IMG/VR virus record: IMGVR_UViG_3300035698_012504
Span: 1-58,693 of that record
Direction: 5' to 3' (one strand)
From: a virus
Length of the DNA stretch: 58,693 nucleotides
Below are positions 26,316-49,862 of the stretch, in pieces (positions within the stretch are counted from its first letter, which is position 1; every line of letters starts with the position of its first letter). Made by a program: the position numbers and the translations under genes. The notes under the pieces are model-generated. The model was given only the letters and a program-made list of their open reading frames with translations. It was not told the DNA's origin and did no database searches.

Positions 26316-26319
26316 TAAA

Positions 26320-31056: not shown

Positions 31057-31082
31057 AAAGGCTAGGGATAGAGAAATATTAA

Positions 31083-31970
31083 ATGAATATAGAAAAACAT
31101 TTGAGTGAACATACAAAAATAATGTTTGGACCATTCTTTGGAGAGTTTGGATGGGAAGTACTAAAATGGGCACCATTTATAAAATGGTATCGTAATAAGT
31201 ACCAATCTAAAAAAATAGCAGTTTCCACTAGAGGAGACCGATTTGACTTATATTATAATTCAGCTGATTTTATCCACACATTCAAGATAAAAGGAGACTA
31301 TAAACGATTCAAACCCACTGGAGTCGAATGTAATTTACCAGGTGAGATAAGAAAAAATATTATGAATGATATAAGAAATAAATATCCAAATTGGTATATA
31401 TTTAATCCATCATGGAGTATTTCCCCAGGTAAGTCTATCAATAAACATAATTCATTATATCATTTCGAACCTAGGCCATCGAACTCTAAAAAAATATTGG
31501 ATAGACTAGATGGTAAAATTCCAATAGTTATTAGCTCAAGACATAGACTAGATAATAATCTTCGCAATTGGGGAAGGAAGCGTTGGATAAATCTTTTTAG
31601 ATTAATCGAAAAAGAAGACAAGTATGTAGTTTTTGTGGCCGGTAAATCTCCATCATACATCAAATCTTCAAATAATAATTTTTACAACCTAGAAAGTCTT
31701 GTGGATGAACAAACATCAGAGGTAGGATTATCTATAGCAGCAATCAACGCATCTCGACTTGTAGTGTCCTCCCAATCAGGAATAGTATTATTGACAAATA
31801 TATTAAAGACCCCTATTATATTTTGGGGGGATCAAATAAGGAGACATAGTTGTAAGGATAATCCTCTAAATAATAATGTAATTGGAATAGAAGATCTAAA
31901 CTATAATATTCGTCCGAAGGTAATATTAGAAGAGATCTCTAAGTTTTTTAAGGAGTTAACACATGAATAA
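31083..31970 (+). CDS. hypothetical protein in the glycan island (possible glycosyltransferase)
   Basis: Long ORF. The function guess rests on context alone. Confidence 0.3.
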   Translation: MNIEKHLSEHTKIMFGPFFGEFGWEVLKWAPFIKWYRNKYQSKKIAVSTRGDRFDLYYNSADFIHTFKIKGDYKRFKPTGVECNLPGEIRKNIMNDIRNKYPNWYIFNPSWSISPGKSINKHNSLYHFEPRPSNSKKILDRLDGKIPIVISSRHRLDNNLRNWGRKRWINLFRLIEKEDKYVVFVAGKSPSYIKSSNNNFYNLESLVDEQTSEVGLSIAAINASRLVVSSQSGIVLLTNILKTPIIFWGDQIRRHSCKDNPLNNNVIGIEDLNYNIRPKVILEEISKFFKELTHE

Positions 31971-32628
31971 TTTTTCAGTAGTTTCTGTGCCAAGAAGTGG
32001 TTCCCATTTCTTGGCAAAAATGTTAAATAAAAGTCCAAGTTGGACAGTTATCCCAGAGCACGACGATGACTTCGGAAGAGAGATCGGAAAGGGATTTTCT
32101 AAAAAAGAGAAATGGCTTAGAAGGATAAATAAAAGGCTTCAACAAGACTTTTATGGGGAAGTGTCTCCACAACATATATTTCATCTTGATGAAATTAATG
32201 CAAATAAAAAAGTATGTTTGTACCGACACCCATATGATTTTATGCTGTCTACTTTCAATAGAAAAAACCAATATATTACTCAGTTCCCAATGGCATATGG
32301 CCTCTGGTATATCCCATTCTATTTTACAATAGATAGATATATTAGAGAAGGTATATACTCTATGAAATTTGAGAAGATGATTAATAATAAAAAAGTTATA
32401 TTAAATTTGTGTGATTATTTAGGAATAAATGATATCGATTCAGATAAAATTAATATGAATAAAAAAATAAACAGTTCGGAGTCTCATAATCAAAAAAAAC
32501 AGTGGAAATCCTTATCAATGTTAACCCCGATTCAATTTGAAAAATTAAAAGCTATGGATTGGTTTTGTAAGAAGTATTACGGAGACACAATGCAAAAACA
32601 CCATAATAAAAGATTAGAAGTTGAGTAA
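31963..32628 (+). CDS. sulfotransferase-like protein
   Basis: VVSVPRSGSHFLAKML resembles the 5'-PSB loop (P[KR]SG[ST]). Confidence 0.45.
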   Translation: MNNFSVVSVPRSGSHFLAKMLNKSPSWTVIPEHDDDFGREIGKGFSKKEKWLRRINKRLQQDFYGEVSPQHIFHLDEINANKKVCLYRHPYDFMLSTFNRKNQYITQFPMAYGLWYIPFYFTIDRYIREGIYSMKFEKMINNKKVILNLCDYLGINDIDSDKINMNKKINSSESHNQKKQWKSLSMLTPIQFEKLKAMDWFCKKYYGDTMQKHHNKRLEVE

Positions 32629-32629
32629 T

Positions 32630-33085
32630 ATGTTAGATGTAAATATGAAAGATCTTGTAGAAAAAGTAAAGGATGCGTTGTATCGTACCCATTTTGTTTT
32701 TGGACCTTCTGATAAAAGATTACATATTGGTAAAAATGTAAAGGTTTGGAATACTCTTTTCAATGTAGTATCTGGGCATGTTTATATAGGAAATAATTCA
32801 TTTTTTGGACATAATTGTATGGTTCTTACTGGTAGACATAAATGGGTTGATGGTAAACGTGCAAGATTATCTGGTAAAGATGAAATTCCTAAAAAAGGAT
32901 TTGATATAAATATAGGTAAAGGGTGTTGGATTGCATCAGGCGCTATAATTTTAGGAGGGGTTAGTATTGGAGACCACTCAATTGTAGCAGCAGGTTCAGT
33001 AGTTACTAAGGATGTCCCATCCGGAATGGTTGTGGCTGGAAACCCCGCTAGAATTATAAAATCAGTAAATGAGTTGAGTGTATAA
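32630..33085 (+). CDS. hexapeptide-repeat (left-handed beta-helix) acyltransferase
   Basis: IGKGCWIASGAIILGGVSIGDHSIVAAGSVVTKDVPSGMVVAGNPARIIK. Confidence 0.75.
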   Translation: MLDVNMKDLVEKVKDALYRTHFVFGPSDKRLHIGKNVKVWNTLFNVVSGHVYIGNNSFFGHNCMVLTGRHKWVDGKRARLSGKDEIPKKGFDINIGKGCWIASGAIILGGVSIGDHSIVAAGSVVTKDVPSGMVVAGNPARIIKSVNELSV

Positions 33086-33087
33086 AT

Positions 33088-33573
33088 ATGATAAAATTAA
33101 ATGTTGGTTGCGGCACAGATATAAAGGAAGGGTATGTTAATATTGATGTTCGTAAAACTCATCCAAGTGTTAAAATAGCAGATGTATGTAAATTACCATA
33201 TAAAAATGGTACTGTAGATGAGATAGTTGCAAAAGATGTGTTTGAACATATATCGTTTCATGACACTCAGAAGCTTTTGAAACATTGGGTTTCTAAATTG
33301 AAGAAAGGGGGAAAATTATTCATTAAATGTCCTTCGATTAATATGATTGCAAAAACGATTATAAAGAACAATAATAACCTAGAAGAAATGGAGGATATGA
33401 TAAGAAGAATTTTTGGTGGTCAAAATTACCCAGAAAACACTCATTTGACAATAGGCCATCCAAAGTTAATGAGAAAATATTTGAAGGGTTTGGGCATTAA
33501 ACATAAAAACATTAAAATACAAAATGGTGGATTCGGAAACGGTACTAATATGAAAGTTTGGGTTGTAAAATAA
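33088..33573 (+). CDS. class I SAM-dependent methyltransferase
   Basis: LNVGCG motif I, then VDEIVAKDVFEHI and GGKLFI. Confidence 0.7.
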   Translation: MIKLNVGCGTDIKEGYVNIDVRKTHPSVKIADVCKLPYKNGTVDEIVAKDVFEHISFHDTQKLLKHWVSKLKKGGKLFIKCPSINMIAKTIIKNNNNLEEMEDMIRRIFGGQNYPENTHLTIGHPKLMRKYLKGLGIKHKNIKIQNGGFGNGTNMKVWVVK

Positions 33574-33583
33574 GGATATAGTT

Positions 33584-34114
33584 ATGAAAATATTTGGATT
33601 AGGGTTAGCAAAAACAGGGTCAAATAGTTTAAACAATGCTTTAAAAGTATTGGGATATTCTTCTATACATGGTCCAAAAAATTGGAAACAAATAGATGAT
33701 CATGAAGGAGTGACAGATGTCGTAATATTATTTCCATTTGAAGATATTTATAAACGATATCCACATGACAAATATATCTTAATGGTTAGGGATAATGATA
33801 AATGGATAGATTCATTAGAGTACCAATATTTTAAGAATTTGGGAGGACGTCCACAAATTCAGATAGATAGAATGATTGAATTTTATGGAACATATAACTT
33901 TAATCGAACCACATGGATAAATAGAAAGATTAAACATGAACACGATGTGAAAGAATCTTTTAAAGGTAATCCTAATTTTATAACTATGGATATATGTGGG
34001 GGAGTTGATGGATGGGACATTCTTTGTAATTTTTTAGATAAGGATGTTCCGGATATAATATTTCCTCATTCAAATAAAAGAAAAGTAAATAGGAAGAAAA
34101 AACTGACAGCATAG
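33584..34114 (+). CDS. sulfotransferase-family protein (Sulfotransfer_4-like), paralogue of 29766
   Basis: FGLGLAKTGSNSLNNALKVLG. Collinear with 29766-30293 through to ...FPH... Confidence 0.55.
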   Translation: MKIFGLGLAKTGSNSLNNALKVLGYSSIHGPKNWKQIDDHEGVTDVVILFPFEDIYKRYPHDKYILMVRDNDKWIDSLEYQYFKNLGGRPQIQIDRMIEFYGTYNFNRTTWINRKIKHEHDVKESFKGNPNFITMDICGGVDGWDILCNFLDKDVPDIIFPHSNKRKVNRKKKLTA

Positions 34115-34128
34115 GAGTATTAGAGGAT

Positions 34129-34914
34129 ATGAAAATAAACTACTACATAATGTCAGCATTTAATGTATGGTTTGATTATTTCAATTTAGCAATTCCTACA
34201 AATGAATGGACTAAAAGAAGATTAGATATTTTTGAGAAAACTACTTTAAGGTCTATTGGAAATCAGACTAATAAGAACTTTAAATATATTGTTTTCTTTT
34301 ACAAACCTGCATGTGACGAAGATGATATAGTAAGAATAGACGGCTATAGTGATATAACTCCTATCTTTTTAGATGAACCATTTAACTCTAAGATTCATTT
34401 GAAGCCCATACTTGAGAAAGATACAAAAGATGGTGATGTTGTAGTAGTGACAAAAATTGATTCTGATGATATATTATATCCTACGTTTGTTGATGTAGTA
34501 TATGGGTTGGTTGATACTGACTTTCTGGATAGAAATAAAGCATTTTATTGTTTTCCAAAAGGGTATCGTTATAGATTGTATGATTATTCTCTTTGGAAAG
34601 AAAAATGGACAACATGTTCTATTTTTACGATTGTTGAAAGAATAATTGATGGTGAATTACAATCTGCTTTTAGAGGATATGACTATAAGCATACTGAAGT
34701 GTCTAGAATGTTTAAATCTCAAAAACTTCAAAGACCAGTTAAGGGTATTGGAGCTATGTGGTTAAAATATGATAGTGAAGTATCTATGAATGTAAGAAAT
34801 AAAGATAAAATGTTAGCCAATAAGATTAAGCATAAATTTATAAAACTAGTTGATGATGATTTAGCTAGGCGCGTGTGTGATGATTTTAATATTCCTATAG
34901 ATAGTTTAAAATAG
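34129..34914 (+). CDS. putative rhamnosyl-transferase-like glycosyltransferase
   Basis: W..RRLDIFEKTTLRSIGNQTNKNF and TKIDSDDILYPTF. Paralogue at 48960. Confidence 0.4.
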   Translation: MKINYYIMSAFNVWFDYFNLAIPTNEWTKRRLDIFEKTTLRSIGNQTNKNFKYIVFFYKPACDEDDIVRIDGYSDITPIFLDEPFNSKIHLKPILEKDTKDGDVVVVTKIDSDDILYPTFVDVVYGLVDTDFLDRNKAFYCFPKGYRYRLYDYSLWKEKWTTCSIFTIVERIIDGELQSAFRGYDYKHTEVSRMFKSQKLQRPVKGIGAMWLKYDSEVSMNVRNKDKMLANKIKHKFIKLVDDDLARRVCDDFNIPIDSLK

Positions 34915-34924
34915 AGGATTCAAT

Positions 34925-35473
34925 ATGAAACAGAAAATGTCTGGTCGAGGTCGTAAAGATAGTAGAATTGCTTTACGAAAATATATAGAAGTGCTTCCTG
35001 GTGGAGTAATGGTGGAGGTTGGTAGTTGTAAAGGAGAGTCAACTGTACTGTTTGCAAAGAAGTTTAAGTTAGTGTTTGCAATTGACCCATGGGAAGGATT
35101 TTATCAATATGGAGATAAGAAAGATCAATTTCTAGATGCAGGAATGTTAAAAGAGGAAAGAGATTTTGATAAAGCTGTACATGGGGTTAGCAATATAGCT
35201 AAGATATGTTCTAAGAGTAATTTAGTTGTAGATAAGTTTGATGATAAATCTTTGGACTTTGTTTATATAGATGGATGCCACACCTATGAATCAGTTCGTG
35301 AAGATATATCCATTTGGCTTCCAAAAATTAAACCAACTGGTATGATTGGTGGACATGATTATAATCTTAAGGGTTGGCCTTTGGTTGTGAAAGCTATACA
35401 TGAATCTTTTGGAAAACCACCAGATATACGAATGAATGGGGCAAACTGGGCATATAGGAAGGTGGAATTATGA
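34925..35473 (+). CDS. class I SAM-dependent methyltransferase (Methyltransf_24/CmcI-like)
   Basis: MVEVGSCKGEST...AIDPW...YIDGCHTYESV...GGHDY. Confidence 0.55.
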   Translation: MKQKMSGRGRKDSRIALRKYIEVLPGGVMVEVGSCKGESTVLFAKKFKLVFAIDPWEGFYQYGDKKDQFLDAGMLKEERDFDKAVHGVSNIAKICSKSNLVVDKFDDKSLDFVYIDGCHTYESVREDISIWLPKIKPTGMIGGHDYNLKGWPLVVKAIHESFGKPPDIRMNGANWAYRKVEL

Positions 35474-37659: not shown

Positions 37660-38478
37660 ATGAAATCGATTAGCGACAAGTTATTAGAAAATTATTTTAA
37701 TAGTGGTGGTCTAGCTATACCCCAAAAACATTGGTTGAGAAATAAACCAATTGCACATAAAGGTTTATGGACACCAGATAATCCAAGTAATATTCCAGAG
37801 AATAGTCTTCCTGCAGTAGAAAATGCGATTAGACATAAATATGCAGTTGAAGTAGATATACAGTTATCATTAGATGGAGAATTAGTAGTATTTCATGACT
37901 TATTTTTAAATAAACTATGTGGAATAGGTGGGACAATTTCTCAATATACTCTGAAGCAATTAAAAGAATTCAAACTTTCAGAAACAGAATATACAATTCC
38001 AACATTAGAAGAAGTATTAGAACTTACATCTAAAAAAACACCCGTTCTTGTAGACATTAAAGGAGATGTTATGGGGAAGCAAGGAACTGCAAAATTATTG
38101 GCGCACGAGTTAAAAAATTATAAAGGGCATGCTGCCATGCATTCTTTTAACTTTAGTGACTTAAATTACTTCAAACGAGTTGCCCCCAATATTCTTAGGG
38201 GACAAATAATATCTGACTTCAATAAACAAGATGTATCGTTCATTCTTAAATTATTATTAAGAGGAGCAGCCAATTTATTTGAGGCCAAAGGAGATCCTCA
38301 TTTTATTTCATTGGATGTAAGGTCTAAAGTGCAAAGAATCATTAAGTCAGTATGGGCTAATAAAAGAGGCGGAGTAATATTGGCCTGGTTGGTTGATACT
38401 AAAACAATGGAAGCAGTATCAAGGGGATTTGCAGATAACATTATATTTGAAAGAATTAATCCCAAACAACCGTGGTAA
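37660..38478 (+). CDS. glycerophosphodiester phosphodiesterase (GDPD) family protein
   Basis: IAHKG....PENSLPAVENAI..KYAVEVDIQLSLDGELVVFHD, the GDPD catalytic signature. Confidence 0.8.
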   Translation: MKSISDKLLENYFNSGGLAIPQKHWLRNKPIAHKGLWTPDNPSNIPENSLPAVENAIRHKYAVEVDIQLSLDGELVVFHDLFLNKLCGIGGTISQYTLKQLKEFKLSETEYTIPTLEEVLELTSKKTPVLVDIKGDVMGKQGTAKLLAHELKNYKGHAAMHSFNFSDLNYFKRVAPNILRGQIISDFNKQDVSFILKLLLRGAANLFEAKGDPHFISLDVRSKVQRIIKSVWANKRGGVILAWLVDTKTMEAVSRGFADNIIFERINPKQPW

Positions 38479-38495
38479 TAAAAACGAAAGGAACG

Positions 38496-39032
38496 ATGAT
38501 GTCAGTAGATTATAAAATGTTTGTAGCGATGGATGAAAATAATTTAATAGGAAAGAATGGACGCGCTCCATGGAATCTTGGGAAACATACGAAAAGATTC
38601 AAAGGCCTTACTGAAGGTAAAGCAATATTGATGGGAAGAAAAACTTTTGAATGTTTGGGAAATAAGCCCTTGGCAAAACGTGTTAACATAGTCATGTCTC
38701 GTGATCCAAATTACAAAGCACCTCAATATGTATATGTCGTTCACTCCCTAGAGGAAGTGGATGAGTTAGCTGAAAAAAACAATATAGGCGAAATTTTTGT
38801 TATTGGCGGTGCGGAGCTATATAGGTTATATTTTATGAAAGTGTCTAGATTATATATAACTAAAGTAAAAGATAAAATTGAACCAGGAAAAGATAGTGCC
38901 TACTTCGATTGGAATGCTGGAGCAGATGTATATAAGCATAGAATGTGGATAGAACTTAATAAGGATGAGTACGAAAAAGATGAAGAAAATACTCACGATT
39001 TTGAGCTTTTGGAAATGGAACCTTACGAGTAG
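38496..39032 (+). CDS. folA: dihydrofolate reductase
   Basis: IGKNGRAPW...F..LT.GKAILMGRKTFE...PL..RVNIVMSR...VIGGAELY. ATG 38496 follows GAAAGGA. ORF-track start 38472 rejected. Confidence 0.9.
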   Translation: MMSVDYKMFVAMDENNLIGKNGRAPWNLGKHTKRFKGLTEGKAILMGRKTFECLGNKPLAKRVNIVMSRDPNYKAPQYVYVVHSLEEVDELAEKNNIGEIFVIGGAELYRLYFMKVSRLYITKVKDKIEPGKDSAYFDWNAGADVYKHRMWIELNKDEYEKDEENTHDFELLEMEPYE

Positions 39033-39558
39033 AATTCTAAATAAAATTTTATATAGTGTGCTCGATATTATCAAATATGTGTTTATTAACAAACACAAAA
39101 AAATTGATTACTCTCAGCAACGATGGGATAGACACTATCTGAAGATGGCTAATTTTGTTGCAAGTAAGTCTAAAGATAATAGTACTCAAGTTGGTTGTGT
39201 TATTGTCGGCCCCTCGCATGAAGTAAGATCGACTGGGTATAATGGTATGCCTAGAGGCGTAGAAGATTCTATTAGTAAAGTTCCAAAAAGATTTGAGAGA
39301 CCAGAAAAGTATAAATGGTTTGAACATGCTGAACGAAATGCTGTTTATAATGCAGCTCGTTGTGGTACACCCCTCGAAGGATGTATAGCATACATAGAAT
39401 ATTTTCCTTGTACAGACTGTGCCAGATCATTAATTCAATCAGGTATAATTAGAATAGTGGTTACTCATCATCCAGACTTTGAAGAAAGATATGCTGAGGA
39501 AATGAAAACGTCTAAGGTAATGTTATATGAAGCAGGAGTAATTATAGATGTCTATTAG
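38965..39558 (+). CDS. dCMP deaminase (zinc-dependent); start uncertain
   Basis: HAERNA and PCTDCA zinc motifs. The conserved WDRHYLKMA N-terminal helix needs a start upstream of 39130. Candidates are ATG 38965/38980 (overlapping DHFR) or GTG 39058. Confidence 0.85.
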   Translation: MSTKKMKKILTILSFWKWNLTSRILNKILYSVLDIIKYVFINKHKKIDYSQQRWDRHYLKMANFVASKSKDNSTQVGCVIVGPSHEVRSTGYNGMPRGVEDSISKVPKRFERPEKYKWFEHAERNAVYNAARCGTPLEGCIAYIEYFPCTDCARSLIQSGIIRIVVTHHPDFEERYAEEMKTSKVMLYEAGVIIDVY

Positions 39559-40033
39559 TAATCAGTTTTTAAATGAGTTAAGCACCTCTGATTTCAGAGT
39601 TCTACCTGCCACAGAAGAACTAGTCAAAAAAGTATTTGATAATAAAATACATGCTGAAGATTATGTGAATATGTTGAAAGAGGGAGATACTGGAAAGTTT
39701 GTATTCAGTAATAAGAATGATGATTATATAGGACATATAATGGTTAAGGTTAATGAACACAAACACAGAGAATTATCAGTACTATTTATACAAAAGAAAT
39801 ATAGAAGAAGTGGATACGCCCAGTTCCTTATAAATCTATACCCAAAACTTCAAGTGTTATATACAGAGGTAGATAATAAAGAATCTCAACGATTGTATAC
39901 CAAACTCGGGTGGGTGAATAGTGGAATAAAAGGACATTTTGATTCTAAAAATTATGATCATATATGGATCTTATTTTATAAAAAGAAATATATAAAGATA
40001 AAAGAATTAGATGTGTATGAAAAAGGAGTTTAA
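39548..40033 (+). CDS. GNAT-family N-acetyltransferase (putative)
   Basis: LSVLFIQKKYRRSGYAQFLI acetyl-CoA-binding-like motif. Confidence 0.5.
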   Translation: MSISNQFLNELSTSDFRVLPATEELVKKVFDNKIHAEDYVNMLKEGDTGKFVFSNKNDDYIGHIMVKVNEHKHRELSVLFIQKKYRRSGYAQFLINLYPKLQVLYTEVDNKESQRLYTKLGWVNSGIKGHFDSKNYDHIWILFYKKKYIKIKELDVYEKGV

Positions 40034-40554
40034 TGATGAAGCGGGATGTAATTGTTTTGAATAGCAACTATATGCCAATAAATTGTGTCGGTTGGAAAGA
40101 CGCAGTGAATTTGATTTTTAGAGGTATAGTTGAGCCAGTAGGAAACGCGGTATATAATATAAGAACCGTAGCTGAAGACTATCTACTTCCTAAGGTTGTG
40201 AGGTTGGTGAAGTTTGTGAATGTCATTTATAAACATAATTTACCATACTCTAAAAAACACGTATTAGTGAGAGATGGATTTAAGTGTCAGTATTGTGGAA
40301 GAAAGCATAAGAATTTGACTATCGATCATGTTCTGCCAAAGAGTAGAGGAGGCAAAGATGAATTCTTAAATACAGTTGCCGCATGTAGCCAATGTAATAG
40401 CTATAAAGGTGACAAGTTACCAGAAGAGATTAATTTACCTTTGATTAAGAAACCAACAGAACCAACGATAGCAGATTTTATTTTTTTGCGTTTAAAAAAC
40501 GCTGGAACATTAGAAGTACTTAGAGATGTTTTTGAACAAGTCTCAAACTCTTAA
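40033..40554 (+). CDS. HNH endonuclease (McrA-like)
   Basis: CQYCG...LTIDHVLPKSRGG...NTVAACSQCNSYKG. Confidence 0.85.
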   Translation: MMKRDVIVLNSNYMPINCVGWKDAVNLIFRGIVEPVGNAVYNIRTVAEDYLLPKVVRLVKFVNVIYKHNLPYSKKHVLVRDGFKCQYCGRKHKNLTIDHVLPKSRGGKDEFLNTVAACSQCNSYKGDKLPEEINLPLIKKPTEPTIADFIFLRLKNAGTLEVLRDVFEQVSNS

Positions 40555-40572
40555 AGATAACCAGGAGAAAAT

Positions 40573-43500
40573 ATGACAAAAGTTGACATGAGTGATTGGG
40601 TTTTTCCAATCAGGGAAAAGTTTAATTTGACAGAGAATTTTTTAGATCAATATACAAACGAGCAACCTAATTGGGGACCAGTTGGAGCTATTACATATAA
40701 AAGAACGTATAGTCGATATATTGAAAAAGAAGATAGATATGAAGAATTTTGGGAGACTCTCAAACGAGTAGTGGAAGGATGTTATACAATTCAACTAAAT
40801 CATTGTAAAAATTTAAGATTGTATTGGAATGCACATAAAGCACAGAAATCTGCTCAAAAAATGTTTGAGTTGATGTGGAATTTTAAATTTCTTCCTCCAG
40901 GGAGAATGTTGTGGACCCTTGGAGAAGATGTTGTTTGGAAAAAAGGAGTAGCTGTTTTATTAAATTGTGGATTTTGTTCCACTGAAGATCTACATTATGA
41001 TTTTAGTGGACCTTTTTGTTGGTTAATGGACGTTGCTTTATTGGGGGTAGGGTGCGGATTCGATCTAAAAGGGGCAGGAAAAGTTAAAATTCAAGAACCT
41101 AAGGTTGGAGATTATGTTTTTACTATAGATGATAGTAGAGAAGGTTGGAGAGATGCTGTGGAAGTAGTATTAAACTCTTATGTTCATAAATCAAAAATGC
41201 CCAGAGAATTTGATTTTAGTAAAATAAGACCTAACGGAAGTTTTATAAAAACATTTGGAGGCATTGCTCCCGGACCAGGTCCATTAAAATTATGTATAGA
41301 AGAGATAAAACTGGTTCTTAATAAATGTGTAGATAAATATATTACATCTGTAAATATAGTTGATATTTTCAATATAGTTGGGAAATGTGTAGTAAGCGGT
41401 GGACAAAGAAGGTCTAGTGAAATAGCAATAGGAGAATATGATGATATTGATTTTTTGAATATGAAAAATCCTGAGAAATATGAAAAGGAATTAAAGGATT
41501 GGAGATGGAATTCAAACAATTCAGTATTTGCTGAAGTTGGTGCAGATTATACACAATTAACCAAGCACATTATTAATAACGGTGAACCAGGAATAGTGTA
41601 TTTAGATAATATGAGAAAGTATGGGAGGATAAAAGATGGAGAGAAATGGGAAGATGAGGGAGTTTGTGGATTAAATCCCTGTGCTGAAATGTCACTATCA
41701 AAATATGAAATGTGTTTATTGTGTGAAACATTTCCAGCTAATCATGAAAACGAAGAAGAATTTTTAGAAACTCTTAAATATGCTTATCTTTTAGCTAAAA
41801 GTGTTACATTAGTACCATCTCATGATGAACGCACAAATCAAGTTATGCTTAGAAATAGAAGAATTGGGTTATCTATGTCAGGAATAACAGATGCTATTTA
41901 TAAATTTGGTAGACGTAGGTTTCTTAATGAGTTTTGTGATTCTGGATATAATAATATTAGAAAACTGGATAAATTATATTCTAGGTGGTTATGTGTACCG
42001 AAAAGTATAAAAGTAACTACGACAAAACCGAGTGGTTGTAGACCGGGTAGATCGTTAACTTCGACAGATAGAGGGATTTTATCTCTAGATGAATTATTAG
42101 AAGAACATCCTGAAGATTTGGAGTGGAACAACGATCACAGTGATAGTTATGTATACCAGAAAAATAGTAAAAATAAAATATTAAGAACATATAGAAATAG
42201 TACTTCTAAAATAATTAAAATTAAAATGAACTACAATTTAGATTTTGAATGCACCCCGAATCATATGGTGTTTGTTAGTGAACATATGAATGCTAGTAGT
42301 GAAAAAGGAGGATATAAGAGAATAGACGTCAACAAATGGATATGTGCCAATGATGTTCGAGCTGGCGATATTATTCATATTAGTATGAATTCTTATAGAA
42401 AAAATATTTGTTCAAAACTATCCCATTCAGCAATACCAGATACTTTTATTGGTGCTCGTGGAAATATTATAACTCAACCTGAATATATGAATAATGATCT
42501 TGCTTGGATTATAGGATATTTATATGGAGACGGTTGTTTGAGTAGACATAAATTTAGAACTAGATTTATAGATGAGAATAAATATAATCTGGAAAAAGCA
42601 AAAAAAATAATATATGATTTATTTGGATTAGACTCTAATATAAAACCTGCAAGTCAAGATAGAAACGCGTTTGTGCTTGAAATTGGGTCTCGGCATCTTT
42701 GGGACTTTTGGAATATTAATGGAATAACTAAATATGATGAACAGGGCAATATATCGGTAATTCCAAGAATTGTAAGAGAATCATCTAAAGAAAATATTTT
42801 AGCATTTATTTCGGGATTAATTGATTCGGATGGTTGTGTATTTGTTCGTGACGGCGATGTGGGAATATGTATTTCAACCGCCTATGATAATTTTGCAAAA
42901 AATATACAAGAAGTTGGATTTTCTGTTGGATTATGTTTTGGAAGATCTTTGAATACAGAAGGGGAGAACAAACAAGAAATTAAACATATATGGAATTTAA
43001 CATTAAATTCCCACACAGATATTAATTCTCTCCATGTATTATTAAAAACATCCAATAAATTAATAAAAATAAATGACATGCGAAATCCACCACATGATAT
43101 ATCATTTAAGTGTCTGACTGAATCTCAAAATGTTTTAATTTTAGGTAAAGTAGTAAGTGTACATGAATTAGAAGGGTATGAAGAAACGTATGATTTAGAA
43201 GTCGATAAAGATCATTGGTATTATTCCGGAGGTATAAAAAGTCATAATACTGTATCATTATTACCAGGAAGTAATCCGGGTATTCATTTTCCACACTCAG
43301 AATATTATATTCGAAGAATAGAATTTCAAAAAAACTCTCCTTTTATTAAACCACTAGAAATTGCCGGATATAAAAAAGAGCAGTCTTATTATAAAAAAAA
43401 TTCGTGGATTTTTGAATTTCCAATAAGAACTAAAAATTTCTTTAAATCCAAGAGAGATATTACTATATGGGAACAAATGGCTCTTCACGCAGATATACAA

Positions 43501-43803
43501 CACTATTGGTCTGATAATGGTGTATCACAGACTGTAACATTTAACGAAAATGAATCTAATTCGATTAAAGATGTGTTAGAAGTATATGAAGACAAAATAA
43601 AAGCTGTATCATTTTTACCTCTTGATGTGAAATCATATAAACAAATGCCATATGAAGAAATTACAAAAGAAAAATATGAATTATATATATCAACCCTAAA
43701 ACCTTTAAAATTATCGAAGATAAAAATGACTAAAGAAGAAGAGATAGAATCAAAAGAAACGCTAAAATTCTGCGATAATGGTAGTTGTGAAATTAAAAAA
43801 TAG
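40573..43803 (+). CDS. ribonucleotide reductase catalytic subunit (NrdJ-like; class not resolvable by eye) interrupted by an intein
   Basis: Active-site GLNPCAE, YKRTYSR, and TTKPSG|..|TVSLLPG re-joined across the intein. C-terminal Cys pair CDNGSC. Confidence 0.8.
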   Translation: MTKVDMSDWVFPIREKFNLTENFLDQYTNEQPNWGPVGAITYKRTYSRYIEKEDRYEEFWETLKRVVEGCYTIQLNHCKNLRLYWNAHKAQKSAQKMFELMWNFKFLPPGRMLWTLGEDVVWKKGVAVLLNCGFCSTEDLHYDFSGPFCWLMDVALLGVGCGFDLKGAGKVKIQEPKVGDYVFTIDDSREGWRDAVEVVLNSYVHKSKMPREFDFSKIRPNGSFIKTFGGIAPGPGPLKLCIEEIKLVLNKCVDKYITSVNIVDIFNIVGKCVVSGGQRRSSEIAIGEYDDIDFLNMKNPEKYEKELKDWRWNSNNSVFAEVGADYTQLTKHIINNGEPGIVYLDNMRKYGRIKDGEKWEDEGVCGLNPCAEMSLSKYEMCLLCETFPANHENEEEFLETLKYAYLLAKSVTLVPSHDERTNQVMLRNRRIGLSMSGITDAIYKFGRRRFLNEFCDSGYNNIRKLDKLYSRWLCVPKSIKVTTTKPSGCRPGRSLTSTDRGILSLDELLEEHPEDLEWNNDHSDSYVYQKNSKNKILRTYRNSTSKIIKIKMNYNLDFECTPNHMVFVSEHMNASSEKGGYKRIDVNKWICANDVRAGDIIHISMNSYRKNICSKLSHSAIPDTFIGARGNIITQPEYMNNDLAWIIGYLYGDGCLSRHKFRTRFIDENKYNLEKAKKIIYDLFGLDSNIKPASQDRNAFVLEIGSRHLWDFWNINGITKYDEQGNISVIPRIVRESSKENILAFISGLIDSDGCVFVRDGDVGICISTAYDNFAKNIQEVGFSVGLCFGRSLNTEGENKQEIKHIWNLTLNSHTDINSLHVLLKTSNKLIKINDMRNPPHDISFKCLTESQNVLILGKVVSVHELEGYEETYDLEVDKDHWYYSGGIKSHNTVSLLPGSNPGIHFPHSEYYIRRIEFQKNSPFIKPLEIAGYKKEQSYYKKNSWIFEFPIRTKNFFKSKRDITIWEQMALHADIQHYWSDNGVSQTVTFNENESNSIKDVLEVYEDKIKAVSFLPLDVKSYKQMPYEEITKEKYELYISTLKPLKLSKIKMTKEEEIESKETLKFCDNGSCEIKK
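42037..43248 (+). mobile_element. intein (404 aa) with a LAGLIDADG homing-endonuclease domain
   Basis: Starts with Cys (CRPGRSL..) and ends SHN with +1 Thr. Block B TPNH. Two LAGLIDADG motifs, LAWIIGYLYGDGCL and LAFISGLIDSDGCV. In frame, 1212 nt. Confidence 0.85.
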
Positions 43804-43813
43804 TTTTTTTTAG

Positions 43814-43823
43814 TGAGGACAAA
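43814..43823 (+). promoter_or_regulatory. TGAGGACAAA motif, site 3 (intergenic, 52 nt upstream of ATG 43875)
   Basis: Identical 10-mer. The match extends to 13 nt (TGAGGACAAATTA) with site 4. Confidence 0.45.
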
Positions 43824-43874
43824 TTAGTATAAGATAGTACCTCGTGTACAAATTAATTAAAAAGGAGAGAAACC

Positions 43875-43961
43875 ATGAGTGTTTTAGAAATTATCACAGC
43901 GATTATTAACTTTTTGTCAATGATACTGTCAATTCTAGCTGGGTTGGACATATCTATTTAA
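43875..43961 (+). CDS. 28-aa hydrophobic peptide (below the ORF-track cutoff)
   Basis: AAAGGAGAG 5 nt upstream. MSVLEIITAIINFLSMILSILAGLDISI. The stop lies 1 nt before the next ATG. Confidence 0.45.
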   Translation: MSVLEIITAIINFLSMILSILAGLDISI

Positions 43962-43962
43962 T

Positions 43963-44340
43963 ATGAACAGTTCTAAATCCTTTATAGAAGCGAATCTACG
44001 CAAGGTCGCAGCTGCTGAAGATAAGATGGGTGGGTTTAATAAAACTACTCAGTCTGATCAAATTACTATGAATATTAAGACGGCTATCAATCGACAATCT
44101 GATAGATTAAAAGTATGTAGTGGTAGAAGTAATCCTATTGCTAAACTAGAATGTGAGGTCAAGATATATAGACGGCTTGTCGGATTCATAGGAGGCCTAT
44201 CTGGGAAGTGTAATAGAGACGCTAATCCAGATAGATGTAAAGAAAAAGTTTTAAAGTTTAGAGATAATTATCAAGAAACTTTGAAACAACGTGAGTTGAA
44301 ATTAAATACTTTAAAAGAAAAGGCAAGGAAAGGTAACTAA
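43963..44340 (+). CDS. small basic Cys4-domain protein (125 aa), MxxS[EK]xF[IL] family
   Basis: N-terminus MNSSKSFIEANL. C-x11-C-x18-C-x8-C pattern shared with 49862 and 53000. Confidence 0.7.
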   Translation: MNSSKSFIEANLRKVAAAEDKMGGFNKTTQSDQITMNIKTAINRQSDRLKVCSGRSNPIAKLECEVKIYRRLVGFIGGLSGKCNRDANPDRCKEKVLKFRDNYQETLKQRELKLNTLKEKARKGN

Positions 44341-46573: not shown

Positions 46574-48415
46574 ATGATAAACTGTAAAATATGTGATAAA
46601 GAATTTAAGAATTTAGTTCAACTATCAGGACATATCCGTAGTTTTCATAAAATAAATATTATGATATACTATTTAAAATATATTAATTCTAATAATAAAT
46701 GTCCTATATGTGGCCAGTTATGTAACTTTAAAGGACTTGGCAAAGGATTTACTAAAACTTGTTCGGCGTCGTGCGGCGGAAAACACGGGGTAGAAAAACG
46801 AAAACGAAGCAGTCTTGAACGATATGGTGTTGAATGCACATTGCAAGCTGAAGAGACTAAAATTAAAACTAAAAAAACATTTCAAAAAAGGTATGGTGTA
46901 GATCATGTATCGAGATCTAAAAAAATCAGAGATCGTGCTAAACATACTATGATAGAAAAATATGGTGTAGAATATTCCGGCCAGTCATCAGAGATAAGAA
47001 CTAAAATGAAACAAACTAACCTGAAACGATATGGTGTTGAAAATCCACTACAATCTAAGGAAATAAGAGATAAGATTAAGAAAACTAATTTAGAACTATA
47101 TGGTGTTGAAAATGTTGGTCAGAATAAAGATATTAAATCTAAGATTAAAAAAACTAATTTGAACCGACATGGTGTTGAATGTGTTTTCCAATCTGAAAAA
47201 GTGAAAGAAAAAATTAAAAATACAAATCTAAAAAAATATGGTGTAGAACACGCTTCTAACTCTAAAGAAATTAGAGACAAAATTGAGAAAACTAATTTAA
47301 AGAAATATGGTGTAAAAACAATTCTGCAATTAGATGAAATAATATATAATACTACACAAAAAAGAAGAAGCAAATTTTTCACTAATCTTATTAATTCTGA
47401 TCGACTTAAAAATAAATGCGCTCCAAATTTCACAGAGAATGATTTTCAAGGGGTTGATTTTGAATATTCTTGGAACTGCATTAAATGTGGAAATGATTTT
47501 AACGATAGTGTAGACAATGGCAAAATCCCAAGATGCTCAAATTGTTATCCTAAATTGAATAGTTGTTCCAAAGGTGAGAAAGAGATTTTTGATTTTTGTA
47601 GATCAATCTTAACCGACGATATTGAAATAATAGAGAATGACCGCTCTGTATTAATCGGTAAGGAACTCGACGTCTACATACTATCCAATAACCTTGCTAT
47701 CGAATATAATGGTTTATACTGGCATTCGGATCTTAATGGTAAAAATAAAGATTATCACTTGGATAAAACTTATAAATGTAAAGAAAAAGGAATAAATCTT
47801 TTACATGTCTTCGAAGATGAATGGATTGATAAGCTAGAAATTGTTAAGTCTATAATCAAAAATAAACTAGGGTTAACTAAATATCGGGTATTTGCTCGTA
47901 AATGTACTATTAAAGAAGTTGCAAATGATAATGCCCAATTATTTTTATTTGATAACCACATTCAGGGTTCTATCAAAGGAACACAATATGGACTATATTT
48001 CGAAGACGAATTAGTTTCTATTTTAACCATTGGTAAATCCAGATATAATAAAAAATACGAATATGAAATATTAAGATTTTGTAATAAGATTAATACTAGT
48101 GTTGTTGGTGGGTTCTCTAAATTATTAAAGTATTTTAAAACTAAATATAATCCTAAATCAATTATCACATATTGTGATTTAAGATATGGAACTGGTGAAG
48201 TTTATTTAAAGAATGGATTTAGTTTTACTTCTAAATCTAAGCCTTCTTATTATTATGTTAAGAATGGAGATAGATCCTCTAGAATTAAATTTCAGAAGCA
48301 TAAATTAAAAAATTTATTAGAATCATTTGATTCAAATTTAACTGAGTGGCAGAATATGCAACTCAATGGGTATGATCGTATTTGGGACTGTGGTTGTAAT
48401 GTGTACACATTATAA
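46574..48415 (+). CDS. Hef-like homing endonuclease candidate: C2H2 zinc finger, 8 x 23-aa repeats, and a PD-(D/E)XK/Vsr-like nuclease-like region
   Basis: CKICDKEF..H...FH. Repeats of [KR]YGVE.....[KE]I[RK].K.K.TN. ELDVYILSNNLAIEYNGLYWHS...H.FEDEW. Confidence 0.5.
   Translation: MINCKICDKEFKNLVQLSGHIRSFHKINIMIYYLKYINSNNKCPICGQLCNFKGLGKGFTKTCSASCGGKHGVEKRKRSSLERYGVECTLQAEETKIKTKKTFQKRYGVDHVSRSKKIRDRAKHTMIEKYGVEYSGQSSEIRTKMKQTNLKRYGVENPLQSKEIRDKIKKTNLELYGVENVGQNKDIKSKIKKTNLNRHGVECVFQSEKVKEKIKNTNLKKYGVEHASNSKEIRDKIEKTNLKKYGVKTILQLDEIIYNTTQKRRSKFFTNLINSDRLKNKCAPNFTENDFQGVDFEYSWNCIKCGNDFNDSVDNGKIPRCSNCYPKLNSCSKGEKEIFDFCRSILTDDIEIIENDRSVLIGKELDVYILSNNLAIEYNGLYWHSDLNGKNKDYHLDKTYKCKEKGINLLHVFEDEWIDKLEIVKSIIKNKLGLTKYRVFARKCTIKEVANDNAQLFLFDNHIQGSIKGTQYGLYFEDELVSILTIGKSRYNKKYEYEILRFCNKINTSVVGGFSKLLKYFKTKYNPKSIITYCDLRYGTGEVYLKNGFSFTSKSKPSYYYVKNGDRSSRIKFQKHKLKNLLESFDSNLTEWQNMQLNGYDRIWDCGCNVYTL
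46823..47374 (+). repeat. eight tandem 69-nt (23-codon) coding repeats, YGVExxxQSKEIRDKIKKTNLxx
   Basis: The Tyr codon of YGV recurs at 46823, 46892 ... 47306 with a 69-nt period. The last unit is degenerate. Confidence 0.8.
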
Positions 48416-48959: not shown

Positions 48960-49862
48960 ATGAATCCAGTCTGGTTTGAGAACAATAAAAAATATCAGGA
49001 CGAACTAAAGTCCCTTAGAAAGTTTAGAATAAATCCAAACGATATATGTCATATTGTCATAACCCATTTCAATATTAATCTAAGTAAAAACGTAGGGCAT
49101 ACTGGAAGAGAATATAAACGAAATTGGCAAAAGCCAATTCTTAAACAAGGAATTGGTAAAAAATGGATGCAACAAAGAACAGAATTATTTGATCAAATTT
49201 GTTATCCATCTATGTTAAATCAAACGAATCAGAATTTCGAATGGTTTACTTTTTTTGATAAGGATACAACTGATATAAAATCATACAGAAAATATAATCG
49301 AATGCATCCAATGCTTATACCATATAAGGATCCATTTAGATATCAGACACACATAATACAAAATCTCCTTATTGATCGAGGCATTAAAAAGAAGTGGTTT
49401 ATATTCACAAAGTTAGATAATGATGATGCTCTTAACAAAACATTTATAGATAGACTACAAAACATTTGGCTTCCGTATTGTATAAAACATAATAGAGAAT
49501 TTTCTATGGTTTGTTTTACAAGTGGCGTAATGGCCCTAAAGAGACCCGATGGAAAAAGTAAACTCATGACCAAAGAAGATAGATATGGACCATTCGTAAA
49601 TACAATAGAGAAATTTAATAAAGATTACAAGAAGTTTAAAACATGTTGGCATAGCTATCATACTACTATGCATGACAAAGCTTTTCCAGAGAGTGTAGTT
49701 AGATACACAGATAAGAGTGATCCTATGTGGTTTATATACGATCACGAATTTAATTTGTGTGATAGAGATCCAAGATTAAAGGAAAAGACCGATTATACTG
49801 GGACAGAGAAAGACCTAATAGAAAGGTTTAATATTAATCCTAAATACGTGAGGTTAAAATAA
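48960..49862 (+). CDS. putative rhamnosyl-transferase-like glycosyltransferase, paralogue of 34129
   Basis: WMQQRTELFDQICYPSMLNQTNQNFEW and TKLDNDDALNKTF. Confidence 0.4.
   Translation: MNPVWFENNKKYQDELKSLRKFRINPNDICHIVITHFNINLSKNVGHTGREYKRNWQKPILKQGIGKKWMQQRTELFDQICYPSMLNQTNQNFEWFTFFDKDTTDIKSYRKYNRMHPMLIPYKDPFRYQTHIIQNLLIDRGIKKKWFIFTKLDNDDALNKTFIDRLQNIWLPYCIKHNREFSMVCFTSGVMALKRPDGKSKLMTKEDRYGPFVNTIEKFNKDYKKFKTCWHSYHTTMHDKAFPESVVRYTDKSDPMWFIYDHEFNLCDRDPRLKEKTDYTGTEKDLIERFNINPKYVRLK

What the first reader, a model, noticed from the sequence alone, without database searches (positions are those of the whole stretch)
42037..43248. LAGLIDADG intein in the ribonucleotide reductase at the TTKPSG|TVS motif
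The RNR ORF contains a 404-aa in-frame insertion beginning with Cys (CRPGRSLTSTDRGILSLDEL) and ending ...GGIKSHN, followed by Thr. It has block B TPNH and two LAGLIDADG motifs. Removing it joins KVTTTKPSG to TVSLLPGSNPG, restoring a conserved RNR motif. The intein looks intact, with splicing residues and endonuclease motifs present, so it is probably both splicing-competent and mobile. An McrA-type HNH gene lies directly upstream of the RNR gene (40033-40554), so this locus holds two selfish nucleases.
Basis: partly seen in the sequence, partly recalled or inferred. Interest (0 to 1): 0.5.

Follow-up and report, generated by a model that had tools for sequence, protein, structure and literature searches.

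The report
Self-splicing intein in phage ribonucleotide reductase
A 404-residue self-splicing protein element that carries its own DNA-cutting enzyme interrupts a conserved motif of a phage vitamin-B12-dependent ribonucleotide reductase; it is well formed and probably active, but it is an ordinary example of a known kind of selfish element.

Summary
Window 42037-43248 (+) encodes a 404-aa in-frame insertion (Cys1 ... His-Asn | Thr+1) in a 1076-aa ORF (40573-43803). Without it, the 672-aa product aligns without a gap across the junction to Lactobacillus leichmannii ribonucleoside-triphosphate reductase (RTPR, monomeric class II RNR). The insertion lies between the equivalents of Gly551 and Thr552. 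All RTPR catalytic cysteines are kept.

The insert matches the Pfam intein-splicing and LAGLIDADG models. Its AlphaFold model (pLDDT 91) matches solved intein-endonucleases (TliVMA, PI-PfuI, PI-SceI). An exhaustive search found 87 relatives below E 1e-30. About 65 full-length ones sit at the same KP(S)G|T site, in divergent RTPR-like enzymes and, more distantly, in NrdJ. The nearest relative is 53% identical.

The insert keeps 41 of 46 family-conserved endonuclease positions, including both catalytic Asp residues. A decayed relative keeps 29 of 55. Across the family, inteins are more alike than their flanking exteins, which indicates horizontal spread. No close intein-free allele was found, so mobility of this copy is inferred, not shown.

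The upstream HNH gene is real. Two more nuclease-like genes lie downstream.

Verdict: a canonical class 1 LAGLIDADG intein, a new member of a known kind, of low interest.

The parts
40573..42036 (+). N-extein of the adenosylcobalamin-dependent ribonucleoside-triphosphate reductase (RTPR), residues 1-488. It contains the equivalents of L. leichmannii Cys119 (C132), Asn406/Cys408/Glu410 (N368/C370/E372) and Cys419 (C381), and ends in TTKPSG.
   Evidence: Residue equivalences were read from the phmmer alignment to 1l1l.
42037..43248 (+). Class 1 intein of 404 aa with a nested LAGLIDADG homing endonuclease.
   Evidence: Pfam Intein_splicing and LAGLIDADG_3; 87 homologues at E<=1e-30; AF2 model with pLDDT 91.1 and pTM 0.92; Foldseek hits to 7qss (E 8.9e-25), 1dq3 and 1vde.
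42037..42039 (+). Block A nucleophile Cys1 (codon TGT).
   Evidence: Invariant in the 23-sequence family alignment; boundary codons.
42253..42264 (+). Block B TPNH (Thr73 ... His76).
   Evidence: His76 is invariant and Thr73 is at least 90% conserved; coordinates.
42469..43086 (+). Endonuclease domain, about intein residues 145-350. The model shows two alpha-beta-beta-alpha-beta-beta-alpha halves.
   Evidence: DSSP elements H153-165, E166-169, E174-179, H182-196, E202-204, E212-217, H219-227 and H251-265, E266-271, E274-281, H284-296, E301-306, E318-323, H329-338. Matches to I-DmoI and I-Tsp061I.
42499..42537 (+). LAGLIDADG motif 1, LAWIIGYLYGDGC, with catalytic Asp165.
   Evidence: Gly164 is invariant; Asp165 and Gly166 are at least 90% conserved; coordinates.
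42799..42837 (+). LAGLIDADG motif 2, LAFISGLIDSDGC, with catalytic Asp265.
   Evidence: Gly260 and Asp263 are invariant; Asp265 and Gly266 are at least 90% conserved; coordinates.
43186..43248 (+). Blocks F and G, TYDLEVDKDHWYYSG and GIKSHN, with Asp386, His393, His403 and Asn404.
   Evidence: T384, D386, E388, H393, W394, S402, H403 and N404 are invariant; coordinates.
43249..43803 (+). C-extein of RTPR (precursor residues 893-1076 plus the stop codon). It starts with the Thr+1 nucleophile (TVSLLPG...) and ends with the C-x4-C pair equivalent to Cys731/Cys736.
40033..40554 (+). Free-standing HNH endonuclease gene of 173 aa. Its start overlaps the stop of the GNAT gene, and it ends 18 nt before the RNR start codon.
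   Evidence: Pfam HNH_5 and HNH; phrog_16726; homologues in 77 phage records, with one in cyanophage S-TIM5 lying beside nrdA and nrdB.

Best explanation
The segment is a canonical class 1 intein with a nested LAGLIDADG homing endonuclease. It sits in the gene for a monomeric class II (B12-dependent) ribonucleotide reductase, RTPR, in what is probably a large uncultivated phage. The gene is translated as a 1076-aa precursor. Cys1 attacks the Gly(-1) peptide bond in an N-S acyl shift, assisted by block B Thr73/His76. Thr+1 takes over the N-extein by trans-esterification. Asn404, assisted by His403, cyclises and releases the intein. An O-N shift then leaves a native Gly-Thr peptide bond. This restores the conserved TTKPSG-TVS motif and yields a 672-aa active reductase plus a free 404-aa intein. 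The free or still-embedded endonuclease domain is predicted to cut intein-free alleles at the DNA that encodes this same motif, so that repair copies the intein in (homing). Shown here: the anatomy, boundaries, fold, family membership and shared insertion site. Inferred: splicing (about 0.9), endonuclease activity (about 0.6), and current mobility of this particular copy (about 0.4).
For: The boundaries are exact and in frame. The spliced product aligns without a gap across the junction to L. leichmannii RTPR 1l1l, with the insertion between the Gly551 and Thr552 equivalents. It keeps the equivalents of Cys119, Asn406, Cys408, Glu410, Cys419, Cys731 and Cys736. The TIGR02505 score rises to 378.7 bits with a junction-spanning match once the intein is removed. 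The Pfam intein and LAGLIDADG models pass their cut-offs. The family alignment shows C1, H76, D263, D386, H393, W394, S402, H403 and N404 invariant, and T73, D165 and D265 at least 90% conserved; all are present here. The AF2 model has pLDDT 91.1, and its top PDB matches are endonuclease-bearing inteins: TliVMA 7qss (E 8.9e-25), PhoVMA 7qst, PI-PfuI 1dq3, PI-SceI 1vde and PI-TkoII 2cw7. About 65 full-length homologous inteins occupy the same KP(S/E/A)G|(T/S) site. Their hosts are divergent RTPR-like enzymes and, more distantly, NrdJ at APTG|T. This copy keeps 41 of 46 family-conserved endonuclease positions, and its five mismatches are L->I, W->Y, W->F, A->S and H->N. A decayed member, P0031, keeps only 29 of 55 and has lost both catalytic Asp residues. 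Across 80 hosts, mean pairwise intein identity (41%) exceeds that of the flanking extein (34%), with only weak correlation (Spearman 0.24). Many pairs have inteins about 50% identical while their flanks are 21-25% identical, which indicates horizontal spread. The closest exteins (P0006, P0008, P0013, 64-66% identical) lack the intein, so its distribution is patchy. There is experimental precedent: the homing endonuclease of the Nostoc PCC7120 RNR intein cleaved its predicted target (PMC3159444).
Against: There is no experimental evidence for splicing or cleavage. No near-identical intein-free allele or recent transfer partner was found; the nearest intein is 53% identical. The intein's GC3 (0.181) equals that of the extein (0.185), so it is a long-term resident rather than a recent arrival. 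The nearest inteins sit in the nearest intein-bearing exteins (flank identity 60-66%), which fits vertical descent within the local clade. Keeping the motif residues does not prove nuclease activity.
Confidence: 0.9

Rival explanations
1. The intein splices, but its endonuclease is inactive or no longer has targets. It would then be a fixed, vertically inherited passenger in the late stage of the homing cycle, rather than a currently mobile element.
For: Its composition is indistinguishable from the host gene (GC3 0.181 against 0.185). The nearest relatives are only 47-53% identical and sit in the nearest intein-bearing exteins. No empty allele was found in close relatives. Endonuclease decay does occur in this family, as in P0031.
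Against: Both LAGLIDADG motifs and their acidic residues are intact. The copy keeps 41 of 46 conserved endonuclease positions, within the range of the other apparently intact members and far above the decayed one. A 404-codon open frame is kept in DNA of about 30% GC. The available collections hold no RTPR more than 66% identical to this one, so the absence of an empty allele says little.
Confidence: 0.3
2. Splicing is conditional (for example sensitive to redox state, temperature or nucleotides). The intein would then act as a post-translational switch on phage dNTP synthesis, and not only as a parasite.
For: This rests only on circumstance. The insertion lies in a conserved motif next to active-site elements, so the unspliced precursor should be inactive. 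Inteins cluster in replication and dNTP-supply proteins, and this has been argued to reflect function (PMC4760082). The intein contains several cysteines besides Cys1.
Against: No feature specific to a regulatory intein was found. Insertion at conserved motifs is fully explained by endonuclease target conservation. No cysteine lies near position -1 in the N-extein (KPSG), so there is no partner for a Cys1 disulfide trap.
Confidence: 0.06
3. The upstream free-standing HNH endonuclease (40033-40554), not the intein's own LAGLIDADG domain, makes the DNA break that mobilises the RNR region together with the intein. This would be trans or collaborative homing, as described for T4 mobE and I-TevIII.
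For: The HNH gene ends 18 nt upstream of the RNR start. A homologue in cyanophage S-TIM5 lies beside nrdA and nrdB. It was not found in any of the 198 fetched related loci, so its distribution is sporadic. Its GC3 of 0.30 is above the genome mean of 0.228, sd 0.04. T4 mobE promotes trans homing of a defunct intron endonuclease (PMC2790892, title and abstract).
Against: The intein's own endonuclease looks intact. In another phage, Tunturi_5, the HNH homologue is not near an RNR gene. There is no information on its target.
Confidence: 0.07
4. The segment is a native, non-splicing insertion domain of the reductase, or the gene is a disrupted pseudogene.
For: None beyond the lack of experimental data.
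Against: All the intein blocks are present at exact boundaries. The model has the Hint plus LAGLIDADG fold. Dozens of orthologues lack the segment precisely. All 1172 RTPR homologues in deposited phage genomes lack any relative of it. The frame is open, and the exteins keep every catalytic residue.
Confidence: 0.02

Closest known systems
Archaeal endonuclease-containing inteins with solved structures: TliVMA and PhoVMA (PDB 7qss, 7qsu, 7qst), PI-PfuI from the Pyrococcus furiosus RNR (1dq3), PI-SceI (1vde), PI-TkoII (2cw7)
   Same: The two-part architecture is the same: a Hint splicing domain split by a two-motif LAGLIDADG endonuclease. Foldseek gives E 8.9e-25 to 8.4e-13 with probability 1.00. 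There is direct sequence similarity to the TliVMA endonuclease region, E 1.2e-8.
   Different: Identity to these structures is only 12-20%. The host proteins or insertion sites differ. The intein in the Pyrococcus RNR profile PRK08332 ends at profile position about 1241, and the NrdJ protein P0248 matches that profile from 1237 starting at its residue 305, about 170 residues upstream of its APTG|T site at 473/474. This copy is mesophile-like, AT-rich and phage-borne.
RIR1 inteins of class II RNR (NrdJ) in bacteria and archaea, that is the InBase alleles rir1-a to rir1-m, such as the widespread rir1-b and the Nostoc PCC7120 RNR intein
   Same: The host enzyme superfamily is the same, and so is the habit of inserting in conserved catalytic motifs. 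Distant members of this intein family sit at the homologous APTG|T site of NrdJ (P0248 and P0164). The Nostoc RNR intein endonuclease was shown to cut its predicted target (PMC3159444). The rir1 alleles span bacteria and archaea (PMC4071816).
   Different: The host here is the monomeric RTPR subtype (TIGR02505), not dimeric NrdJ. I could not map the site to an InBase allele letter, because InBase is not available through these tools. In GTDB species genomes, close full-length relatives (36-40% identity) appear in only six loci, all from MAGs and none from a cultured organism.
Previously described phage RNR inteins (B. subtilis SPbeta nrdE, Corynebacterium phage P1201 RIR1, Campylobacter phage nrdA, Clostridium phage c-st nrdD)
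   Same: They are inteins in phage RNR catalytic subunits (PMC3653736).
   Different: Those are in class I or class III subunits. No relative of this intein occurs in any of 50,697 deposited phage records, although 1172 of them encode an RTPR homologue.
Free-standing phage homing endonucleases next to nrd genes (T4 mobE between nrdA and nrdB), as a comparison for the upstream HNH gene
   Same: It is a small HNH nuclease gene wedged directly beside an RNR gene. A homologue occupies the nrdB-nrdA region in cyanophage S-TIM5 (PMC2790892 and PMC3653736).
   Different: No sequence relationship to MobE was tested, and neither the target nor the mobility is known.

Membership tests
Intein (class 1, Hint superfamily) | A precise in-frame insertion that is absent from orthologues and interrupts a conserved host motif. 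| tested here: met
   The alignment of the spliced sequence to 1l1l has no gap across the junction. Intein-free orthologues P0006, P0008 and P0013 exist. The TIGR02505 match spans the junction after removal.
Intein (class 1, Hint superfamily) | An N-terminal nucleophile (Cys or Ser at position 1) and the block B TxxH motif. | tested here: met
   Cys1, and Thr73-Pro-Asn-His76. C1 and H76 are invariant in 23 homologues.
Intein (class 1, Hint superfamily) | A C-terminal His-Asn, and Ser, Thr or Cys at position +1 of the C-extein. | tested here: met
   The sequence is ...KSHN|T. S402, H403 and N404 are invariant, and +1 is Thr or Ser in all family members.
Intein (class 1, Hint superfamily) | The Hint fold of the splicing domain. 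| tested here: met
   AF2 pLDDT 91.1. Top PDB matches are inteins. Pfam Intein_splicing scores 40.0 against a cut-off of 35.8. The short TIGR01445 N-terminal model is below its cut-off (21.3 against 24.5), while the TIGR01443 C-terminal model is above it (18.6 against 15.6).
Intein (class 1, Hint superfamily) | Autocatalytic protein splicing that gives ligated exteins and a free intein. | not testable with these tools
   This needs expression followed by SDS-PAGE or MS. It is inferred from intact catalytic residues in both the intein and the extein.
LAGLIDADG homing endonuclease (two-motif, monomeric) | Two LAGLIDADG motifs, each ending in a catalytic acidic residue. | tested here: met
   The motifs are LAWIIGYLYGD165GC and LAFISGLIDSD265GC. 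Pfam LAGLIDADG_3 scores 40.8 bits.
LAGLIDADG homing endonuclease (two-motif, monomeric) | A tandem alpha-beta-beta-alpha-beta-beta-alpha fold. | tested here: met
   The DSSP element order in the model fits. Foldseek matches I-DmoI and I-Tsp061I.
LAGLIDADG homing endonuclease (two-motif, monomeric) | Site-specific cleavage of the intein-free allele, and homing. | not testable with these tools
   No close empty allele was available. The only support is at family level: a shared site in divergent hosts, and inteins more alike than their flanks.
Adenosylcobalamin-dependent ribonucleoside-triphosphate reductase (RTPR, TIGR02505; monomeric class II RNR) | A score above the curated equivalog cut-off. 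| tested here: met
   350.3 bits for the precursor and 378.7 bits for the spliced sequence, against a cut-off of 340.05.
Adenosylcobalamin-dependent ribonucleoside-triphosphate reductase (RTPR, TIGR02505; monomeric class II RNR) | The catalytic residues of L. leichmannii RTPR: Cys408 (thiyl radical), Asn406, Glu410, the redox pair Cys119/Cys419, and C-terminal Cys731/Cys736. The residue roles come from established knowledge of this enzyme. | tested here: met
   All are aligned and conserved: C132, N368, C370, E372, C381 and C663/C668 in extein numbering.
Adenosylcobalamin-dependent ribonucleoside-triphosphate reductase (RTPR, TIGR02505; monomeric class II RNR) | B12 dependence and NTP substrate. 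| not testable with these tools
   A biochemical assay is required.
InBase RIR1 allele (a lettered insertion site) | The same insertion point as a catalogued rir1-a to rir1-m allele. | not testable with these tools
The papers read name the alleles but give no site sequences. The site is homologous to APTG|T of NrdJ.

The most novel reading that the evidence does not exclude
The intein is not only a parasite but also a conditional switch. Splicing at the conserved TTKPSG|T motif would respond to the redox or nucleotide state of the infected cell, so the phage would time activation of its B12-dependent reductase after translation. The adjacent HNH nuclease might help spread the whole cassette. 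A smaller novel point is that this KPSG|T allele family in RTPR-type reductases seems confined to uncultivated phages and MAGs and may not be catalogued.
Probability: 0.05. Interest if true: 0.55.

Novelty: new member of a known kind. Interest (0 to 1): 0.2.

Why it matters
It matters little beyond correct annotation. The gene should be called as one intein-containing RTPR, not as a giant or fused protein. It adds a well-preserved, mesophile-type, AT-rich LAGLIDADG intein whose predicted roughly 40-bp target lies in a near-universal RNR motif. That could be of modest use as a new splicing or meganuclease scaffold. The survey around it shows that phage-type and MAG-type RTPR genes are an intein hot spot. 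At least six approximate insertion positions were seen, and inteins recur at the KPSG|T site across hosts whose flanks are 21-66% identical. This family is absent from all deposited phage genomes. That is a useful data point for people who study intein ecology, but it is not a surprise.

Tried and rejected
(1) A word-indexed homology search with the intein alone returned nothing, although the database holds the identical precursor P0001. This is a limit of the tool, not a biological result. The exhaustive phmmer search replaced it.
(2) I looked for a recent empty allele or transfer partner. blastn of 40000-44000 against phages gave no match. The source contig of P0001 could not be retrieved. 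In IMG/VR the extein found relatives at most 49% identical. In metagenome contigs it found at most 60%, over a partial match. Homing-site DNA from the closest intein-free locus (L001) and the closest intein-bearing locus (L002) is too diverged to be informative, with 21-28 of 36 bases matching.
(3) The scan of GTDB genomes with the intein profile found only MAGs and no cultured organism. No named reference intein could be tied to the site.
(4) Four literature searches found no paper on inteins in RTPR-type RNR and no sequence definition of the InBase rir1 sites.
(5) The composition profile and GC3 show no foreign signature for the intein.
(6) Rfam found no family in the window. The promoter and terminator scan around the locus gave fewer or no more sites than shuffled sequence. 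tRNA search found none.
(7) I rejected the idea of a native RNR insertion domain or a pseudogene; see the rival explanations.
(8) I considered whether the Pyrococcus RNR intein in the PRK08332 profile shares the site. The profile coordinates indicate a different, upstream site.
Full report
**Observation.** The ORF at 40573..43803 on the + strand encodes 1076 residues. Translating 42037-43248 gives an uninterrupted 404-residue segment that starts CRPGRSLTSTDRGILSLDEL and ends YYSGGIKSHN. It is preceded by ...KSIKVTTTKPSG and followed by TVSLLPGSNPGI.... The boundary codons are GGT|TGT and AAT|ACT. TPNH lies at intein residues 73-76. The two LAGLIDADG motifs are LAWIIGYLYGDGC (155-167) and LAFISGLIDSDGC (255-267).

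**Host protein.** NCBIfam places the precursor in TIGR02505, the adenosylcobalamin-dependent ribonucleoside-triphosphate reductase (RTPR, monomeric class II RNR). The score is 350.3 bits against a cut-off of 340.05, in three stretches. After deleting the 404 residues the score rises to 378.7 bits, and one stretch (179-671) runs across the junction.

The spliced sequence matches the Lactobacillus leichmannii RTPR crystal-structure sequence 1l1l at E 5.7e-104. The alignment is gapless through the junction: KSIKVTTTKPSGTVSLLPGSNPGIHF against ESIKHTTVKPSGTVAKLAGASEGMHF. This places the insertion between the equivalents of Gly551 and Thr552.

The same alignment shows conservation of the equivalents of Cys119, Asn406, Cys408, Glu410, Cys419 and the C-terminal Cys731/Cys736. 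Their roles (thiyl radical, redox pair, C-terminal shuttle) come from established knowledge of this enzyme. The exteins therefore look like a working enzyme, and that requires removal of the insert.

**The insert is an intein with a nested endonuclease.** Pfam Intein_splicing scores 40.0 bits (cut-off 35.8). LAGLIDADG_3 scores 40.8 bits (cut-off 22.5). Hom_end scores 21.2 bits (cut-off 21.1). The short NCBIfam N-terminal intein model is below its cut-off and the C-terminal one is above it.

Sequence search of the PDB finds the endonuclease region of the Thermococcus litoralis VMA intein at E 1.2e-8. An AlphaFold2 model built on a 23-sequence alignment has mean pLDDT 91.1 and pTM 0.92. Its secondary structure shows a beta-rich splicing domain made of residues 1-113 and 371-404. 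This domain is interrupted by two alpha-beta-beta-alpha-beta-beta-alpha units.

Foldseek against the PDB returns only endonuclease-bearing inteins at the top: TliVMA 7qss at E 8.9e-25, then PhoVMA, PI-PfuI, PI-SceI and PI-TkoII. Free LAGLIDADG enzymes such as I-Tsp061I and I-DmoI follow.

**Family and insertion site.** A word-indexed search with the intein alone gave nothing, which is a limit of that tool. The exhaustive phmmer search of 1.84 billion representatives found 1155 hits at E<=1e-3 and 87 at E<=1e-30. The nearest are 53% (P0002) and 49% (P0004) identical.

In about 65 full-length matches the intein sits at the same place...KP(S/E/A)G | C....SHN | (T/S).... Most hosts are divergent RTPR-like proteins. 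More distant intein relatives (P0248, P0164) sit at the homologous APTG|T site of dimeric NrdJ.

In a 23-member alignment C1, H76, D263, D386, H393, W394, S402, H403 and N404 are invariant. T73, D165, G166, D265 and G266 are at least 90% conserved. The window's copy has all of them.

**State of the endonuclease.** At positions conserved in at least 85% of the other family members, this copy matches 34 of 39 in the splicing domain and 41 of 46 in the endonuclease domain. The endonuclease mismatches are L->I, W->Y, W->F, A->S and H->N. This is within the range of the other apparently intact members. One member, P0031, has lost both catalytic Asp residues and matches only 29 of 55. The endonuclease here therefore belongs to the intact group, although activity is not demonstrated.

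**Mobility.** I found no direct evidence for this copy.
- Nucleotide search of deposited phages found nothing.
- The source contig could not be retrieved.
- IMG/VR holds no RTPR more than 49% identical, and metagenome contigs none more than 60% identical.
- The intein's GC (0.299) and GC3 (0.181) match the extein (0.310 and 0.185), so it is not a recent arrival from a compositionally different donor.

Family-level evidence does point to horizontal spread. The closest exteins (P0006, P0008 and P0013 at 64-66%) lack the intein, while somewhat more distant ones carry it. Over 80 hosts, mean pairwise identity is higher for the inteins (41%) than for 260 residues of flanking extein (34%), and the correlation is weak (Spearman 0.24). 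Many pairs have inteins about 50% identical while their flanks are 21-25% identical. For the window's copy, the nearest inteins also sit in the nearest intein-bearing exteins (flank identity 60-66%). That fits vertical descent within its local clade.

**Relation to what is known.** RNR is the second most frequent intein host in bacteria, with 211 inteins counted, and is a frequent host in archaea (PMC4760082). Phage RNR inteins are documented in nrdE, nrdA and nrdD (PMC3653736). Several rir1 alleles are catalogued, some spanning domains of life (PMC4071816). An RNR intein endonuclease from Nostoc has been shown to cut its predicted target (PMC3159444).

What is slightly new is the host subtype and habitat. 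None of 50,697 deposited phage records holds a relative of this intein, and the three weak hits are unrelated inteins or proteins. Yet 1172 of those records encode an RTPR homologue. In GTDB species genomes, close full-length relatives appear only in MAGs. I could not assign the site to an InBase allele letter. This is a new member of a known kind.

**Surroundings.** The window has 88 ORFs of at least 70 aa, 85 of them on the + strand. GC is about 31.6%. It has no tRNA genes and no Rfam families.

Nucleotide-metabolism and replication genes:
- ThyX
- peptidyl-tRNA hydrolase
- a clamp-loader-like AAA ATPase
- a primase-like protein
- DHFR and a dCMP-deaminase-like ORF
- a GNAT acetyltransferase
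- a flap-endonuclease-like 5'-3' exonuclease

Other genes:
- about ten glycosyltransferases
- a methyltransferase
- an ATP-grasp protein
- a GDPD-family protein
- a PHROG 'virion structural protein'
- a Volactin-family actin-like protein

The window is most likely part of a large uncultivated phage.

The ORF directly upstream of the RNR gene (40033-40554) is an HNH endonuclease. Its start overlaps the stop of the GNAT gene, and it ends 18 nt before the RNR start. Homologues occur once per genome in 77 phage records. In cyanophage S-TIM5 one lies next to nrdA and nrdB, but in phage Tunturi_5 the homologue is not near an RNR gene. It was not found in any of the 198 fetched related loci. Its GC3 of 0.30 is above the genome mean of 0.228. 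A free-standing mobile nuclease is a reasonable reading, but it is not proven.

Two more nuclease-like genes lie downstream. One is a 613-aa DUF7487-repeat protein that matches the PHROG 'homing endonuclease' phrog_3339 at 6.4e-152; it is multi-copy in jumbo phages such as RaK2 and K64-1. The other is a LEM-3-like GIY-YIG protein.

**Verdict.** It is a canonical class 1 LAGLIDADG intein in a conserved motif of a phage RTPR. It very probably splices and plausibly still has an active endonuclease. It belongs to a sizeable allele family known almost entirely from metagenomes. It is ordinary for the field, so I score interest at 0.2.

Noticed in passing
window 46574-48415 (+): A 613-aa protein with four DUF7487 repeats (Pfam 1.2e-63). 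It matches the PHROG 'homing endonuclease' phrog_3339 (6.4e-152) and 'HNH endonuclease' phrog_559. Homologues are multi-copy in jumbo phages (RaK2, K64-1, Muenster, uncultured huge phages), with up to 11 places per genome. It is a third nuclease-like gene, 2.8 kb downstream of the RNR gene.
   Followed up: partly
window 57179-58075 (+): A 298-aa protein with a LEM-3-like GIY-YIG nuclease domain (Pfam 4.7e-11). It is another possible mobile or repair nuclease.
   Followed up: no
window 56158-57222 (+): A 354-aa protein that matches Pfam Volactin (PF25216) over its full length at 1.3e-61. This is an actin-like protein in what looks like a phage genome, and it has no PHROG match.
   Followed up: no
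window 24654-35473, 48960-49862 and 53730-54476 (+): An unusually large set of about ten glycosyltransferase genes (GT2, GT8, GT1-like, rhamnosyl-transferase-like). They are accompanied by sulfotransferase-like, methyltransferase, ATP-grasp and GDPD genes, so the phage encodes an extensive glycan-modification module.
   Followed up: no
proteins P0003 (1089 aa) and P0004 (1606 aa), relatives of the window RTPR: Their exteins are 97.6-99.7% identical and both carry the KPSG|T intein (98.8% identical). They differ by an extra insert of about 517 aa in P0004, at the thiyl-radical cysteine (MTNP | CYVGNTLIAV...GIFTLQ | CGEIGL). From the sequence around the break, the insert appears to end in Gln rather than Asn. 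Pfam PF13392 (HNH_3) is on record for P0004. This is a recent presence/absence polymorphism of another intein in this clade.
   Followed up: partly
relatives P0002-P0059 and P0121-P0260: The RTPR clade is an intein hot spot. Insertions occur at about six extein positions: near LLN|C (about 131-138), GGQRR|S (280), about 312, NP(C) (about 370), about 386, and KPSG|T (488). Single proteins reach 1.4-2.7 kaa, with up to five matched intein stretches. The sites other than 488 are only approximate, taken from BLAST HSP ends.
   Followed up: partly
protein P0031, residues 1159-1537: A member of the same intein family has lost both LAGLIDADG catalytic Asp residues (GYLLGKNS and GYIDSSIY) but keeps the splicing blocks. 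It is an example of endonuclease decay in the homing cycle.
   Followed up: yes
window 40033-40554 (+); L199 (cyanophage S-TIM5): The HNH gene has a higher GC3 (0.30) than the genome mean (0.228, sd 0.04). Its S-TIM5 homologue lies about 700 bp downstream of nrdA, and a second HNH gene lies between nrdB and nrdA there.
   Followed up: partly
window 38472-39032 and 38965-39558 (+): The DHFR-like ORF and the dCMP-deaminase-like ORF overlap by 68 nt as listed mechanically. The deaminase probably starts at a later Met. Their identities were judged from the translations only, and no family search was run on these two.
   Followed up: no
tool behaviour: The word-indexed protein search with the 404-aa intein returned no hit, although the database contains the identical precursor (P0001). 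A negative result from that tool for an internal domain query should not be read as absence.
   Followed up: yes
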